Both the position numbers and the translations under genes were made by a program. Shown here piece after piece: positions 20,101 through 25,887 of a stretch of 64,000 nucleotides of DNA. The number at the start of each line of letters is the position of its first letter. The first letter of the stretch is position 1. The DNA comes from Candidatus Kapaibacteriales bacterium (GTDB lineage: Bacteria; Bacteroidota; Ignavibacteria; Kapaibacteriales; UBA2268): NCBI GenBank assembly GCA_965661945.1, contig CBFIFP010000001.1, forward strand, positions 777,103 to 841,102, given 5' to 3'. Below the pieces are notes generated by a model, which saw only the letters and a program-made list of their open reading frames with translations, did no database searches and was not told where the DNA came from.

Positions 20101-20529
20101 TTAATTTTCGCTGTATAAAACACCAAGAGAGCGAGCAGTACCTTTAATCATGTCTATTGCAGCGTCTAAATTGCCTGCAGTTAGTTCATTCTTTTTGATT
20201 TCTGCAATTTTTTCGCATTGAGCTCTTGTAATTGTACCAACTTTTTTCTTATTAGGTTCACCTGAACCACTTTTAAGACCTAATTCTGCTAGAATTAATA
20301 CAGCCGCTGGAGGAGATTTGATTTCAAAATCAAATGATTTATCACTGAAGAAAGAAACTAGTACTGGTAAAACCATACCACCTTCTTTTTGAGTTTTAGC
20401 ATTGAATTGTTTAACAAATTCAGCGCCATTTAAACCTCTTTGACCGAATGCAGGACCTACGGGAGGGGACATTGTAGCTTGGCCTGCTTTAAGCTGCAAT
20501 TTAAATTTTCCCAATAACTTTTTAGCCAT
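20101..20529 (-). CDS. rplK: 50S ribosomal protein L11
   Basis: 142 aa. [18 protein letters not shown]...[13 protein letters not shown] is the L11 N-terminal signature. Confidence 0.9.
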
Positions 20530-21305: not shown

Positions 21306-21324
21306 AGTTTTCTCTTGTTATTTG

Positions 21325-21397
21325 CACGGGTGGTAGGACTCGAACCCACAGCCTACGGTTTTGGAGACCGCCACTCTACCAATTGAGCTACACCCGT
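21325..21397 (-). tRNA. tRNA-Trp (anticodon CCA)
   Basis: Cloverleaf folded by hand: acceptor ACGGGTG/CACCCGT, anticodon loop CTCCAAA, T-arm GTGGG-TTCGAGT-CCTAC. CCA is not fully encoded. Confidence 0.85.
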
Positions 21398-21436
21398 AAA
21401 AATTAATGCGAGCGTCCAAAAACCTGTAAGATGACG

Positions 21437-21508
<72 letters not shown>

Positions 21509-21515
21509 GGATTAG

Positions 21516-21588
21516 AGCGGAAGACGAGACTCGAACCCGCAACCCTCAGCTTGGAAGGCTGATGCTCTACCAATTGAGCTACTTCCGC
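21516..21588 (-). tRNA. tRNA-Gly (anticodon TCC)
   Basis: Acceptor GCGGAAG/CTTCCGC, anticodon stem-loop TCAGC-CTTCCAA-GCTGA, T-loop TTCGAGT. Confidence 0.85.
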
Positions 21589-21606
21589 ATTTATATCCTT
21601 AATTTG

Positions 21607-21689
21607 TGGGCAGAGAAGGATTCGAACCTCCGTAGGAGTACTCCAACAGATTTACAGTCTGCCCCGTTTAACCACTTCGGTATCTGCCC
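21607..21689 (-). tRNA. tRNA-Tyr (anticodon GTA), type II with long variable arm
   Basis: Acceptor GGGCAGA/TCTGCCC, anticodon stem-loop GCAGA-CTGTAAA-TCTGT, long variable arm, T-loop TTCGAAT. Confidence 0.85.
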
Positions 21690-21923: not shown

Positions 21924-22748
21924 TTAAAACATCTCAGATTGATCTTGATTTTTATTTAATAACTTAAAAAACCTTAATTCTTCTTCAGTGTTTTCAATAT
22001 TTTTATCTATTCCACCGTATCTATTTATACTTTCTTTTACTTGATAAATTACATTATTTAAATCCTGGTTAATATCATAAGTAGTGTATCTTAAAACATT
22101 CCACCCCTTACTTTTTAGATTATTATCTCTTATTTTATCATATTTTACATCCTTTTCGCTCAGATGGTAAGCATCCCCATCACATTCTATAGCTAACTTT
22201 ATATTTTTGCAAAACAATGCAAAATCAATAAAATAATTAAAACTCTTTATTTTTTCGTGAAATTCTCTTTCAGCAGGTATCATATTCTTTTTTAATTCCT
22301 TCCATAATTTTTCTTCTATTGAAGATCCAAGATATAAATCATTTATTTCATCGGCAGAAAGAAATTTTTTCATATTTGAATTTATAAATATGATAATTCT
22401 TCTTTTTTTACTTAATATAGGTTTTTCTAGTTTTATTAGATCTTCTATTTCAATTTTATAATATTTATCATATGTCTTGTCATTATATAGTTCATTTGGA
22501 AATAGTTCATTTCTTTCTACAATTTTAACATTCTTAACTTTTGAATAATATCTTACTTGAAATCCATCTTCTCCAAAAATTTTTCCTTGGTAAAAACCAA
22601 TATACTTTATACTTCCATCAATGACCATTTTTGGAACACTCTTTATTCTTTTGGTAGGAATCCTATACCAACCATATTTAAAAAGATAAATGAAATCATT
22701 ATTATCTTTAATAAGTGCAATTAAAATTTTTGAATCTGCATTTTTCAT
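21924..22748 (-). CDS. DUF559 (Vsr-like PD-(D/E)xK) endonuclease-domain protein with an uncharacterised ~140-aa N-terminal domain
   Basis: The C-terminal half EEKLWKELKKN...IDFALFCKNIKLAIECDGDAYH...YDKIRDNNLKSKGWNVLRYTTYDI fits the DUF559 pattern (ElDGxxH...D..RD..L...G..VlR). The N-terminal 140 aa (YGWYRIPTKRIK...) has no motif I can place. Confidence 0.6.
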   Translation of the reverse strand: MKNADSKILIALIKDNNDFIYLFKYGWYRIPTKRIKSVPKMVIDGSIKYIGFYQGKIFGEDGFQVRYYSKVKNVKIVERNELFPNELYNDKTYDKYYKIEIEDLIKLEKPILSKKRRIIIFINSNMKKFLSADEINDLYLGSSIEEKLWKELKKNMIPAEREFHEKIKSFNYFIDFALFCKNIKLAIECDGDAYHLSEKDVKYDKIRDNNLKSKGWNVLRYTTYDINQDLNNVIYQVKESINRYGGIDKNIENTEEELRFFKLLNKNQDQSEMF

Positions 22749-22878: not shown

Positions 22879-24306
22879 ATGTCTGCTGAAATGAATAATG
22901 AGAATAATGAAGTTACTAATGTTGAAGTTAATGAAGAAGTAACTGCTAATGAGGTTGAAACTGAAAATGTTAATGAAGTTGAAACTAAAGAATCTACTAA
23001 TGAAAATATTATAAACACGGACGATAAAGCTAACTCTAATGAAGTTGCTGAAATTGCTGTTAACAATAATGACTCTGTAGAAAAAAACAATGAAGTTAAA
23101 GAAAGCGAAGCTCCCAAACCAGTAGAGCCAGAAATGAGCGCTGAAGATAAAAGTAAAATAGAAGAAGAGCTTAAAGGTTTACATTCTTCTAATAGCCCTA
23201 TAGAAGTGAACATTAAAGAAAGTGCTATTGGTGGTTATAGAGTTACCTATAAAAATTATACTTTATTTTTACCTATTTCTCACGTTTCAGTTAGAAAAAA
23301 ACCTGATAATGATGAAGTTGAAAAACTAAAAAATGAACCATTCGAAGTTCTTATCCAAGATATTAAAGACTTAAATGGAAGTTTAACTTTTGTTGTATCA
23401 AGAAGAAAATTATTAGAATCTAAAGTTTGGGATTCAATAAATGTTGGTGATGAAATTGAAGGTAGAATAACTTCAATTACAACTTTTGGAGTTTTTGTTG
23501 ATTTAGGAGGAATAGAGGGCTTAGTTCATATCTCTCGCTTAGCTAAATTCAGAGTTAATAAAGCTTCTGATTTTTGTAAAAAAGGTGATACTCTTAAAGT
23601 TGTTGTAATTGAAATTGATAAAGAAAATAAAAAAATATCTCTTAGCCACCAAGAATTTACTAAAAGTCCTTGGGAAGGTGTTGAAGAGAAATACCCTAAA
23701 GATTCCAAGCATAAAGCAAAAGTTAAAAGGTTTACACCTTATGGAGCTTATTTAGAATTAGCCCCAGGAATTGAAGGGCTTCTTCGAAATGGTGAAATAT
23801 CATGGACTAAAAGATTCAAAGAACCACAACAAGTTTTAAAAATTGATTCTGAAATTGAAGTACTTGTAAAAGATATTAACACCACAAAAGAAAATATGGC
23901 GCTTAGTATCAAAGCACTAATCGAGAATCCTTGGAACGATTTGAAAGAAAGATTCCCAGTTGATTCTGTATATTTTGCTAAAGTTAGTGAAATAAATCAA
24001 AAAGGTGTTGTTTTTGAAATCAATGATGAAATTGATGGATTTATGCCAAAAAGCAAAATTGGTGGTAATAGAAATTCGCCAATACCTTACAAAGTTGGCG
24101 AAAGCATTGAGGTTAAAATTGCTGAAATAGTTCCTGAAAATGAATCATTAATTTTAAGACCAAATGTAGAAATAGAACAAACTACACCTAATGACAGACC
24201 CGAAAAAATTGACCCTAAATTTAAGAAATCATCTAAAAATAATGGCTTCTCATTAGGTGAACTTCTTTCAGAAGCAGTTTTAACTGATTTAAACAAAATC
24301 GGTTGA
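22879..24306 (+). CDS. S1 RNA-binding domain protein (about four S1 repeats) with an acidic low-complexity N-terminus
   Basis: Repeated OB/S1 signatures (GDEIEGRITSITTFGVFVDLGGIEGLVHIS; KAKVKRFTPYGAYLELAPGIEGLL; YFAKVSEINQKGVVFEINDEIDGFMP; GESIEVKIAEIV). The first ~80 aa are an E/N/V repeat (NEVETENVNEVE). Confidence 0.7.
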   Translation: MSAEMNNENNEVTNVEVNEEVTANEVETENVNEVETKESTNENIINTDDKANSNEVAEIAVNNNDSVEKNNEVKESEAPKPVEPEMSAEDKSKIEEELKGLHSSNSPIEVNIKESAIGGYRVTYKNYTLFLPISHVSVRKKPDNDEVEKLKNEPFEVLIQDIKDLNGSLTFVVSRRKLLESKVWDSINVGDEIEGRITSITTFGVFVDLGGIEGLVHISRLAKFRVNKASDFCKKGDTLKVVVIEIDKENKKISLSHQEFTKSPWEGVEEKYPKDSKHKAKVKRFTPYGAYLELAPGIEGLLRNGEISWTKRFKEPQQVLKIDSEIEVLVKDINTTKENMALSIKALIENPWNDLKERFPVDSVYFAKVSEINQKGVVFEINDEIDGFMPKSKIGGNRNSPIPYKVGESIEVKIAEIVPENESLILRPNVEIEQTTPNDRPEKIDPKFKKSSKNNGFSLGELLSEAVLTDLNKIG

Positions 24307-24432: not shown

Positions 24433-25887
24433 TTGATAATTATTTTATACATATTGTTTGCCTCATTTCTAAATTCATTTCAAATTGATAATAAATTAAA
24501 TTTACAATTTGAAAGGGGTTATCAATCTCATACCTCAGACTTTAGAACAATAGATTCAACTCCTACATGTTGTTTTAATATTAATAATGGAACCTCCCTT
24601 TCAAATGGTCTACTTTTAAATTATAGATTTAAAGTTTTTAAAAAATTATATCTCGGTATTGGATTTGATTACAGACGACTTAAAGGAAAAATGAATTCTT
24701 TTTTAGAAGAAGAAATAAGCATTGAAGGAATCAACTATCTCGGAAGATTTGAATATGCAGTTGAGCATAAAACTGATATGCTGTTTTTAAATCTTGGAAT
24801 AGATTATAATGTATATAAAGATTTATATTTTGGATTTAATTTTGGAACTAATAGTATAATAAATTTAAACTATTATCAATATGAGAAATTAATCTCACCA
24901 TCAGATAGAGGTTACTTTCTTCAAGAAGATGGAGTAAGAACCAGGCGAAATAATGAATTTAGAGGGGATATCAAAACAAGTGCTTTGAATTATAATATTG
25001 GAGCAAAAGTTTTTTATGAACTACCAATCAACAAAAAGAAAACTTTAAACATTACTCCAACAATAGGGTATAATTTATTCATCGGAGAGTTAATTGAAAA
25101 CACAAATTGGTCTTTTAATTCAGTAAACCTTACTATGGGTATAAATTATTATTTTCATAAGGATACATCAAATTATGAAGTTGATAAAAATATTGATAAA
25201 ACCTTGCTTATTGCTCCTGTAATAATAACAAAAGGTCGAGAAGTTTTTAGAAATGAATTAGAATATGAAGTAATAAATTATAATGTTGAAATTATTGACA
25301 TTGGGCTTACTGAAAAAATAAAAAAAATAGAAATAAAGAAAAAAACTCCATTAGATGATACATTAAGGTTGTTTTATAAGTTTGGTAAATTTAATAATAT
25401 TCAAAACTTAGAACTAGAAATAAATTATGACAAATCTCAAACCACAAGAAATTTAGATTTACTAAGTGATAAAATAGACTTTAAAATTGATGATTTATTA
25501 GATTATTATGAAGATAAAGTAACTTATAATCTAAAATTAATAGATAAACAAAAAGTTTATTCTAAAGGAAATTATACTTTTGAAGAAAAAGTATACTACT
25601 CCAATAATATTGTCATTAATCAAAAAAAATCATTTGATAAAAATTATAATATTAAACTGATAAAATGGAGAGGGGAAACAGAAAAAAATAGAATTTTTGA
25701 ATTAATTAAATCGAATGTCAATGATATTAATAAAATAGAATCGATACAATCAAATAGTGAGTATGGTTTAAAATTAATTCAAGAATCAGACAATCCACGC
25801 ATTTCTTACAATGATAATGATGAGTTAGTTAAAGTATTAAAAAGTTTTATTGGAATTGATTACTACATAATATTAAATGAAAATTAA
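24433..25887 (+). CDS. hypothetical protein, probably outer-membrane/beta-barrel-like; TTG start
   Basis: 484 aa. The only start candidate after the in-frame stop at 24418 is TTG. It has a hydrophobic N-terminus and alternating aromatic/polar strands (GIGFDYR, LNLGIDYNVY, GFNFGTNS) typical of beta-barrels. No recognised domain. Confidence 0.45.
   Translation: MIIILYILFASFLNSFQIDNKLNLQFERGYQSHTSDFRTIDSTPTCCFNINNGTSLSNGLLLNYRFKVFKKLYLGIGFDYRRLKGKMNSFLEEEISIEGINYLGRFEYAVEHKTDMLFLNLGIDYNVYKDLYFGFNFGTNSIINLNYYQYEKLISPSDRGYFLQEDGVRTRRNNEFRGDIKTSALNYNIGAKVFYELPINKKKTLNITPTIGYNLFIGELIENTNWSFNSVNLTMGINYYFHKDTSNYEVDKNIDKTLLIAPVIITKGREVFRNELEYEVINYNVEIIDIGLTEKIKKIEIKKKTPLDDTLRLFYKFGKFNNIQNLELEINYDKSQTTRNLDLLSDKIDFKIDDLLDYYEDKVTYNLKLIDKQKVYSKGNYTFEEKVYYSNNIVINQKKSFDKNYNIKLIKWRGETEKNRIFELIKSNVNDINKIESIQSNSEYGLKLIQESDNPRISYNDNDELVKVLKSFIGIDYYIILNEN

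What the first reader, a model, noticed from the sequence alone, without database searches (positions are those of the whole stretch)
21924..22748. DUF559 (Vsr-like) nuclease fused to an unknown N-terminal domain, sitting next to the tRNA-Tyr/Gly/Thr/Trp cluster
The C-terminal ~110 aa carry the DUF559 PD-(D/E)xK signature (IECDGDAYH...RD...GWNVLR), preceded by the typical EEKLWKEL helix. The first ~140 aa (YGWYRIPTKRIK..., basic, aromatic) have no assignable fold. Fusions of a small reader or DNA-binding domain to Vsr-like nucleases occur in modification-dependent restriction and in selfish homing-type endonucleases. The position beside a tRNA cluster, in an AT-rich gap with no operon partner, is typical of horizontally acquired defence or selfish genes.
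Basis: partly seen in the sequence, partly recalled or inferred. Interest (0 to 1): 0.55.

Follow-up and report, generated by a model that had tools for sequence, protein, structure and literature searches.

The report
Clamp-tethered modified-base reader nuclease
This gene encodes an uncharacterised three-part enzyme: a pocket domain of the kind that reads modified DNA bases, a Vsr-like DNA-cutting domain, and a short tail that looks like the peptide used to dock onto the replication sliding clamp, which suggests a nuclease that inspects DNA as it is being copied.

Summary
The ORF (21924-22748, minus strand, 274 aa) is real. Its C-terminal half is a bona fide DUF559/MTES_1575 Vsr-like nuclease with the catalytic motif intact.

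The disordered C-terminal tail ends in a beta-clamp-binding-type peptide: QSEMF here, QLSLF/QLGLF/QLTLF in relatives. It occurs in 42 of 67 independent genomes against about 1.3 expected by chance. The tail is almost never present when the nuclease motif is degenerate: 5 of 150 sequences, against 121 of 151 with an intact motif.

The family is sporadic across at least 10 phyla, has no conserved neighbour, and is absent from phages and plasmids. In this genome it sits among housekeeping genes with no sign of a mobile island.

My best reading is a clamp-tethered, base-flipping-reader-directed endonuclease. I cannot settle whether it serves post-replicative repair (Vsr/NucS logic, slightly favoured) or type IV restriction of replicating foreign DNA. 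It is a new variant of a known modular kind.

The parts
21924..22748 (-). Complete ORF, 274 aa plus stop codon
   Evidence: An identical protein is present in public assemblies (P0001).
22329..22748 (-). Residues 1-140: PUA-like (EVE/YTH/ASCH-type) reader domain, not covered by any Pfam model
22656..22670 (-). Invariant W27-Y28-R29-I30-P31 signature of the reader domain, at the start of strand beta2
   Evidence: Invariant in 52 of 52 sequences. W27, Y28, R29 and P31 stay invariant in the sister clade, where I30 is about 90% conserved. A role as pocket or cage residues is inferred, not shown.
22017..22328 (-). Residues 141-244: DUF559/MTES_1575 Vsr-like PD-(D/E)xK nuclease domain
22164..22187 (-). 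Catalytic motif E188-C-D190-G-D-A-Y-H195. It works together with E160/R161 and D175.
   Evidence: E160, R161, D175, E188, D190, H195, D204, R207, W216 and R220 are invariant in A1.
21927..22016 (-). Residues 245-274: low-confidence, probably disordered C-terminal tail
   Evidence: pLDDT falls to 64, 69 and 53 in the last three 10-residue blocks. The sequence is variable except for the terminal motif.
21927..21941 (-). Residues 270-274, QSEMF: beta-clamp-binding-type motif (Qxx[LM]F) at the extreme C-terminus
   Evidence: Present in 111 of 132 homologues and in 42 of 67 genome-derived members against 1.3 expected from shuffles. Published consensus is QLxLF (PMC4549789). F274 is at least 90% conserved.

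Best explanation
The protein is a three-module DNA endonuclease. (1) The N-terminal PUA-like domain binds DNA and flips a modified or damaged base into a pocket. This step is inferred from the fold and from the invariant residues W27, Y28, Y53, Y96, D18 and R29. (2) The C-terminal tail peptide (QSEMF here, QLxLF in relatives) docks in the hydrophobic cleft of the DnaN beta sliding clamp, so the enzyme is recruited to, and possibly activated on, clamp-loaded DNA, meaning replicating or newly replicated DNA. This step is inferred from the motif, its position and its conservation. (3) The DUF559 Vsr-like domain then nicks or cuts nearby. The domain and its intact motif are shown; activity is inferred. 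I slightly favour a host-genome surveillance or repair role: a post-replicative nickase with Vsr/UvdE-type 'nick next to the odd base' logic and an EndoMS/NucS-type layout (base-flipping N-domain, PD-(D/E)xK C-domain, C-terminal clamp motif). Confidence that all three modules work as described is about 0.55. Confidence in the repair role specifically, which is the figure given in the confidence field, is about 0.4.
For: Nuclease domain and intact motif. PUA-like fold by two methods on a high-confidence model. Clamp motif: enriched about 30-fold over shuffles in an independent genome set, located at or near the C-terminus of a low-pLDDT tail, with canonical QLSLF/QLGLF/QLTLF the commonest forms, matching the published consensus. 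The motif tracks catalysis: 121 of 151 sequences with an intact E-x-[DN]-[GD]-x3-H motif carry it, against 5 of 150 with a degenerate motif. This still holds for clusters at 70, 60 and 50% identity (OR 25, 12 and 7.5). EndoMS/NucS is a precedent in which a C-terminal clamp motif is required for nuclease activity (PMC6159515). From my own knowledge, the nucleases known to bind the bacterial clamp are repair enzymes or transposases. Repair-flavoured rare fusions exist with UvdE, HRDC and RadC. One locus has a C5-methylase, an HNH gene and this gene in an M-R-V-like arrangement. The window gene sits in a housekeeping neighbourhood and the family is absent from phages and plasmids.
Against: No binding or cleavage data exist. 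The window's own motif, QSEMF, lacks the L at position 2. About 20% of catalytically intact members lack the motif. The motif/catalysis association may reflect only a few evolutionary events, because it has no power at clusters of 45% identity or less. The distribution is sporadic, as for defence genes. The closest solved DNA-binding PUA-like domains are all from modification-dependent restriction systems. Some loci lie next to RM or defence genes. UvdE fusions are rare.
Confidence: 0.4

Rival explanations
1. It is a type IV modification-dependent restriction endonuclease. The PUA-like domain reads a foreign modification (m5C, hm5C, m6A or a hypermodified base) and the Vsr-like domain cuts. 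The clamp motif, if functional, aims the enzyme at invader DNA being replicated by the host replisome, such as conjugative-plasmid complementary-strand synthesis or phages that use host DnaN.
For: All characterised single-chain PUA-like plus nuclease fusions are such enzymes. The top structural match is VcaM4I, followed by McrB N-domains, and PD-T4-3 also appears. AbaSI and PvuRts1I combine a Vsr-like nuclease with a PUA-superfamily reader. Lutz et al. 2019 list PUA-Vsr fusions as untested candidates. The family is sporadic across at least 10 phyla and its location varies. HNH_2 is adjacent in 5 of 67 loci and type I HsdM in 3 of 67, and AbiEii/OLD-like ATPases, JetA and IS200 occur nearby in some loci. 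No methyltransferase lies within 6 kb of the window gene.
Against: To my knowledge, and in the searched library, no restriction enzyme is known to carry a clamp-binding motif. Most neighbours are ordinary metabolic genes. In L003 the gene is translationally coupled to a C5-methylase cassette. There is no defence island in the window.
Confidence: 0.35
2. It is a nucleotide- or RNA-sensing effector. The PUA-like pocket binds a free modified nucleotide or a modified RNA rather than duplex DNA, and allosterically switches on the nuclease in an abortive-infection style. The tail motif would serve another partner.
For: YTH, ASCH and many EVE domains bind RNA (one search hit list). A PUA-containing defence module was recently reported to bind free m6-dAMP (bioRxiv 10.64898/2026.01.15.699771).
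Against: The tail motif matches the clamp consensus too well and too often. A pTM of 0.86 for the full model suggests a rigid reader-nuclease unit, as in DNA-scanning enzymes. The gene is not in defence islands.
Confidence: 0.1
3. It is a selfish free-standing homing-type endonuclease, or a mobile-element gene that uses the clamp to target replication forks, as transposases and TnsE do.
Against: There is one copy per locus and no intron, intein, phage or plasmid context. No terminal repeats are present. Close relatives are syntenic. The reader domain is strongly conserved across phyla.
Confidence: 0.05

Closest known systems
EndoMS/NucS mismatch endonuclease
   Same: It has the same three-part logic: an N-terminal domain that flips bases out of the duplex, a C-terminal PD-(D/E)xK restriction-enzyme-like nuclease, and a C-terminal beta-clamp (or PCNA) binding peptide that is required for activity (PMC6159515).
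   Different: It is not homologous. The NucS N-domain is not PUA-like, its nuclease is RecB-like rather than Vsr-like, and NucS did not appear among the structural matches. The analogy is architectural only.
AbaSI / PvuRts1I family (hm5C-dependent restriction enzymes)
   Different: The domain order is reversed (nuclease at the N-terminus). No clamp motif has been described for it.
VcaM4I / TspA15I EVE-HNH restriction enzymes
   Different: The nuclease is HNH, not Vsr-like. Sequence identity is only 11%. The N-domain here fails all Pfam EVE, YTH and ASCH models. No clamp motif is known for it.
Vsr very-short-patch repair endonuclease and stand-alone DUF559 proteins (e.g. PDB 3hrl)
   Different: The protein scores far below the Vsr family cutoff (TIGR00632, 12.3 against 97.85 bits). 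Vsr recognises its T:G target with the nuclease domain itself and has neither a PUA-like domain nor a clamp motif.

Membership tests
DUF559 / MTES_1575 (Vsr-like PD-(D/E)xK nucleases) | Pfam model match above the gathering score | tested here: met
   PF04480 scores 54.1 bits against a cutoff of 20.6, and PF18741 scores 50 against 38.2.
DUF559 / MTES_1575 (Vsr-like PD-(D/E)xK nucleases) | Vsr-like fold | tested here: met
DUF559 / MTES_1575 (Vsr-like PD-(D/E)xK nucleases) | Conserved acidic and His catalytic residues | tested here: met
   E160, D175, E188, D190 and H195 are invariant in 52 sequences. Assignment of their roles rests on the Pfam and 3hrl alignments.
DUF559 / MTES_1575 (Vsr-like PD-(D/E)xK nucleases) | Nuclease activity | not testable with these tools
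   This needs biochemistry.
Vsr proper (TIGR00632) | Family model above its cutoff | tested here: not met
   The score is 12.3 bits against a cutoff of 97.85.
PUA-like superfamily, EVE/YTH/ASCH group | PUA-like beta-barrel fold | tested here: met
PUA-like superfamily, EVE/YTH/ASCH group | Membership of a sequence-defined family (Pfam EVE, YTH or ASCH) | tested here: not met
   None of 30 members has a relevant Pfam hit at E<=10. A profile search of the PDB finds nothing.
PUA-like superfamily, EVE/YTH/ASCH group | Aromatic or polar pocket that accepts a flipped modified base | tested here: inconclusive
   W27, Y28, Y53, Y96, D18 and R29 are invariant, but I could not examine their position in 3D.
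Beta-clamp (DnaN) binding proteins | QLxLF-type peptide in a flexible terminal region | tested here: met
   The window protein ends in QSEMF, keeping Q1, M4 and F5 but with S instead of L at position 2. Across the family the motif occurs in 111 of 132 homologues and in 42 of 67 genome-derived members against 1.3 expected. The tail has low pLDDT.
Beta-clamp (DnaN) binding proteins | Physical binding to the clamp cleft | not testable with these tools
Type IV modification-dependent restriction enzymes | Reader domain fused to a nuclease, with no cognate methyltransferase | tested here: met
   No methyltransferase lies within 6 kb. A C5-methylase is adjacent in only 1 of 67 loci.
Type IV modification-dependent restriction enzymes | Defence-island context | tested here: inconclusive
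   A minority of loci have RM or defence neighbours, most do not, and there was no background control.
Type IV modification-dependent restriction enzymes | Modification-dependent cleavage or phage restriction | not testable with these tools
   This needs experiments.
EndoMS/NucS | Homology of the domains | tested here: not met
Homing endonucleases (I-Bth0305I type) | Residence in an intron, intein or phage genome | tested here: not met
   The gene is free-standing and chromosomal, and there are no full-length phage hits.

The most novel reading that the evidence does not exclude
This family would be the first replisome-tethered 'odd-base' endonuclease built from a PUA-like reader. One possibility is a previously unrecognised clamp-activated repair or strand-surveillance pathway, widespread in Bacteroidota, Ignavibacteriota and Chloroflexota. 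The other is the first restriction enzyme that rides the host sliding clamp to inspect replicating foreign DNA. In either case the catalytically degenerate, tail-less sister clade would represent a derived pure-reader function.
Probability: 0.4. Interest if true: 0.8.

Novelty: new variant of a known kind. Interest (0 to 1): 0.6.

Why it matters
Reader-nuclease fusions are the source of the enzymes used to map epigenetic DNA marks, and they are a major class of phage defence. Clamp-binding nucleases such as MutL and NucS define how cells couple repair to replication. A conserved family joining both principles would point to one of two things. It could be a new replication-coupled repair route in several large, poorly studied phyla. 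Or it could be a new way for restriction to find invaders, by following the replisome. It also defines a new PUA-like sequence family of about 1,000 clusters at 50% identity that no Pfam model covers. Its specificity, once found, could be useful as a reagent. The prediction is directly testable with one peptide-clamp binding assay and a panel of modified DNA substrates.

Tried and rejected
- Sequence searches of the N-domain against Pfam and PDB found nothing relevant. Only fold comparison identified it.
- The afdb50 fold library was unavailable, so I could not survey annotated AlphaFold relatives.
- I clustered 703 neighbouring ORFs from 82 loci to look for a conserved partner gene. None was found; the best candidate occurs in 8 loci.
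- I looked for Vsr-style linkage to a C5-methyltransferase. It occurs in only 1 of 67 loci.
- I looked for island hallmarks around the window gene (repeats, integrase, terminator, extra RNAs) and found none.
- Low GC as a sign of horizontal transfer is rejected, because the adjacent hypothetical gene is equally AT-rich.
- I tested whether the UvdE fusion is a common architecture. It is rare, with none among the top 120 relatives, so it carries little weight.
- Phage or plasmid carriage is rejected. The plasmid hits cover only the DUF559 part.
- Organism identification from cluster names failed, because no names were attached.
- One script used a wrong motif spacing and gave meaningless counts. 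It was corrected.
- I could not access model coordinates, so the pocket residues remain unmapped.

Full report
**Observation.**
- Residues 143-241 match Pfam DUF559 (E=1.6e-14) and MTES_1575 (E=3e-13), both above their gathering scores. They also match the solved DUF559 protein 3hrl by sequence (E=1.7e-7).
- The protein is far below the cutoff of the true Vsr family.
- PADLOC and PHROGs give only weak, domain-level hits to the nuclease part.
- Four tRNA genes (Tyr, Gly, Thr, Trp) lie just downstream on the same strand, followed by secE, nusG and rplKAJL-rpoB. An S1-domain protein gene diverges upstream.

**The family.** A search of 5.8 billion proteins returned 224 homologues. Nearly all are 245-290 aa and cover 88-100% of the query, so the two-domain architecture is a conserved unit.
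- In an alignment of 52 diverse members, the invariant residues of the N-terminal half are D18, W27-Y28-R29-I30-P31, Y53, L82, Y96, R117, F121 and N136.
- In the nuclease half the invariant residues are E145, E160, R161, D175, F176, E188, D190, H195, D204, R207, N209, W216 and R220. The active-site motif is therefore intact.
- A scan of one genome per GTDB species found at least 80 full-length copies, and up to 330 relatives in all. They occur in Bacteroidota, Ignavibacteriota, Chloroflexota, Armatimonadota, Cyanobacteria, Planctomycetota, Gammaproteobacteria, Desulfobacterota, WOR-3 and others.

**N-terminal domain.**
- AlphaFold2 models are very confident: pLDDT 92.1 and pTM 0.86 for the full length, and pLDDT 94.2 for residues 1-140.
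- Foldseek independently ranks YTH, McrB-NTD, VcaM4I and ASCH first, with probability about 1.0 and TM 0.42-0.52.
- None of 30 members hits any relevant Pfam model even at E<=10, and a profile search of PDB sequences finds nothing.
- The domain is therefore a divergent, so far unmodelled family of the PUA-like superfamily. A profile search of 1.84 billion representatives finds 1,065 clusters at E<=1e-3.

After the nuclease domain comes a 25-30-residue tail of low model confidence (pLDDT 64, 69 and 53 in the last three blocks). Its sequence is variable except for a terminal peptide.
- Q-x-x-[LIMFV]-F is present in 111 of 132 retrieved homologues. In an independent set translated from GTDB genomes it is present in 42 of 67, against 1.3 expected from shuffled tails.
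- The commonest forms are QLGLF, QLSLF and QLTLF. These match the published beta-sliding-clamp-binding consensus QLxLF, which is typically found at protein C-termini (PMC4549789).
- The window protein ends in QSEMF. Its closest relatives end in QTKLF, QTEMF, QTELF, QEAMF and QTNLF.
- No paper in the searchable library mentions DUF559 together with the clamp.

**Coupling of tail and active site.** A search seeded with the non-UvdE part of a fusion protein uncovered a very large sister clade: 3,187 clusters at E<=1e-10, about 245-258 aa, mostly Anaerolineae.
- Its E-x-D-G-D-x2-H motif is degenerate. E188 and H195 are lost, and the D204/R207/N209 region is replaced.
- These proteins stop right after the GGL that ends the nuclease domain, so they have no tail.
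- Over 301 full-length sequences, 121 of 151 with an intact motif carry the clamp-type peptide, against 5 of 150 with a degenerate motif (odds ratio about 117). An earlier strict regex under-called the intact class, and one search contained a spacing error.
- The association persists when sequences are collapsed to clusters at 70, 60 and 50% identity (OR 25, 12 and 7.5). It has no power at deeper clustering, so it may rest on a small number of evolutionary events.
- The asymmetry is informative. The tail is almost never kept without a functional-looking active site, which is what one expects if clamp binding serves the cleavage step.

**Genomic context.**
- In the window, and in an identical locus from another sample, all neighbours are housekeeping genes: S1 protein, a CLC channel and peptidase S9 on one side; tRNAs, secE, nusG, ribosomal proteins and rpoB on the other.
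- A 72%-identical relative has the same upstream genes. Relatives at 61-63% identity are elsewhere in their genomes.
- Clustering 703 ORFs from 82 loci shows no conserved neighbour.
- Pfam and PADLOC counts on 115 immediate neighbours show mostly metabolic genes, with a minority of RM, defence or mobile genes. An HNH_2 endonuclease is adjacent in 5 of 67 loci, type I HsdM in 3 of 67, and a C5-methyltransferase in 1 of 67.
- In that last locus the order is C5-methylase, HNH, this gene (its start codon overlaps the HNH stop codon), then IS200.
- There are no flanking repeats, integrase, terminator or extra RNA element around the window gene.
- The gene's low GC (22-24%) is shared by the neighbouring hypothetical gene.
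- No phage encodes the family, and plasmid hits cover only the DUF559 part.
- The 'island beside a tRNA' argument is therefore not supported, although the sporadic distribution does indicate horizontal spread over long timescales.

**Other architectures of the reader domain.** These are rare: UvdE + reader + degenerate DUF559 (two clusters), reader + DUF559 + RadC, + HRDC, + a class I methyltransferase, or + HEAT repeats, reader + DUF3800, and a tandem-reader form. They lean towards DNA-repair partners, but they carry limited weight because they are so rare.

**Mechanism.**
- Shown: an intact Vsr-like nuclease domain; a PUA-like reader fold; and a conserved C-terminal peptide that matches the clamp-binding consensus and co-varies with the active site.
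- Inferred: - The layout mirrors EndoMS/NucS, where a base-flipping N-domain, a PD-(D/E)xK C-domain and a C-terminal clamp peptide are all needed for mismatch cleavage (PMC6159515). The domains are not homologous.

**Role.** Two readings remain close.
- Repair or surveillance (about 0.4). In favour: the clamp motif, because the clamp-binding nucleases I know of are repair enzymes or transposases; the Vsr fold; the repair-type fusions; the M-R-V-like locus; the housekeeping context; and a conserved non-catalytic sister clade.
- Type IV restriction (about 0.35). In favour: every characterised PUA-nuclease fusion is of this kind; the best structural matches are too; the distribution is sporadic; some neighbours are defence genes; and PUA-Vsr fusions are explicitly listed as untested candidates (PMC6765204).
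- A nucleotide- or RNA-sensing effector (about 0.1) and a selfish endonuclease (about 0.05) are less likely.

**Novelty.** Reader-nuclease fusions, including Vsr-like + PUA-superfamily in AbaSI and PvuRts1I, are a known kind. Three things are new here: a distinct PUA-like sequence family in this order of domains, a clamp-binding-type tail on such an enzyme, and the tail's co-loss with catalysis. I rate it a new variant of a known kind, with moderate-to-high interest because one binding assay and one substrate panel would decide it.

Noticed in passing
Its DUF559 catalytic motif is degenerate and it has no C-terminal tail, so it may be a pure reader or adaptor protein.
   Followed up: partly
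P0184, P0233, P0175, P0254, P0204, P0229, P0199, P0136: Rare alternative architectures of the reader domain exist: UvdE + reader + degenerate DUF559; reader + DUF559 + RadC, HRDC, a class I methyltransferase or HEAT repeats; reader + DUF3800; and a tandem-reader form.
   Followed up: partly
Tails of Chloroflexota members, e.g. P0064, P0070, P0105: After the QLSLF motif these members carry an extra acidic extension of about 10-18 residues ending in ENLEL, EYDLD or PFEVD. A second conserved element, an aromatic patch (FKYY, PRIFY; LRFFKL in the window protein), lies about 10-15 residues before the motif. Neither has an assigned function.
   Followed up: no
L003:4259-7384: A Bacteroidota locus has a C5-cytosine methyltransferase, an HNH_2 endonuclease, the family gene (its start overlaps the HNH stop) and an IS200-type transposase in a row. 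It resembles an M-R-V cassette.
   Followed up: partly
window 22879-24306 (+): The divergently transcribed S1-domain protein begins with an acidic, low-complexity N-terminal region of about 100 aa rich in N, E and V. It is encoded by imperfect 40-nt repeats at 22905-23076.
   Followed up: no
window 24433-25887 (+): A 484-aa ORF has no Pfam family and very low GC (21-27%). It is conserved in the same position in the identical locus L001 and in the 72%-relative's locus L086.
   Followed up: no
window 21324-21689 (-): The tRNA-Tyr, Gly, Thr and Trp genes are packed with gaps of 6-38 nt and run straight into secE-nusG. No tuf gene lies between tRNA-Thr and tRNA-Trp.
   Followed up: no
window 20101-20529 (-): The rplK (L11) ORF reads as 142 aa from the first ATG, but it was called as 123 aa in the identical public locus, and both lengths occur in its 90% cluster. 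The start codon is therefore ambiguous.
   Followed up: no
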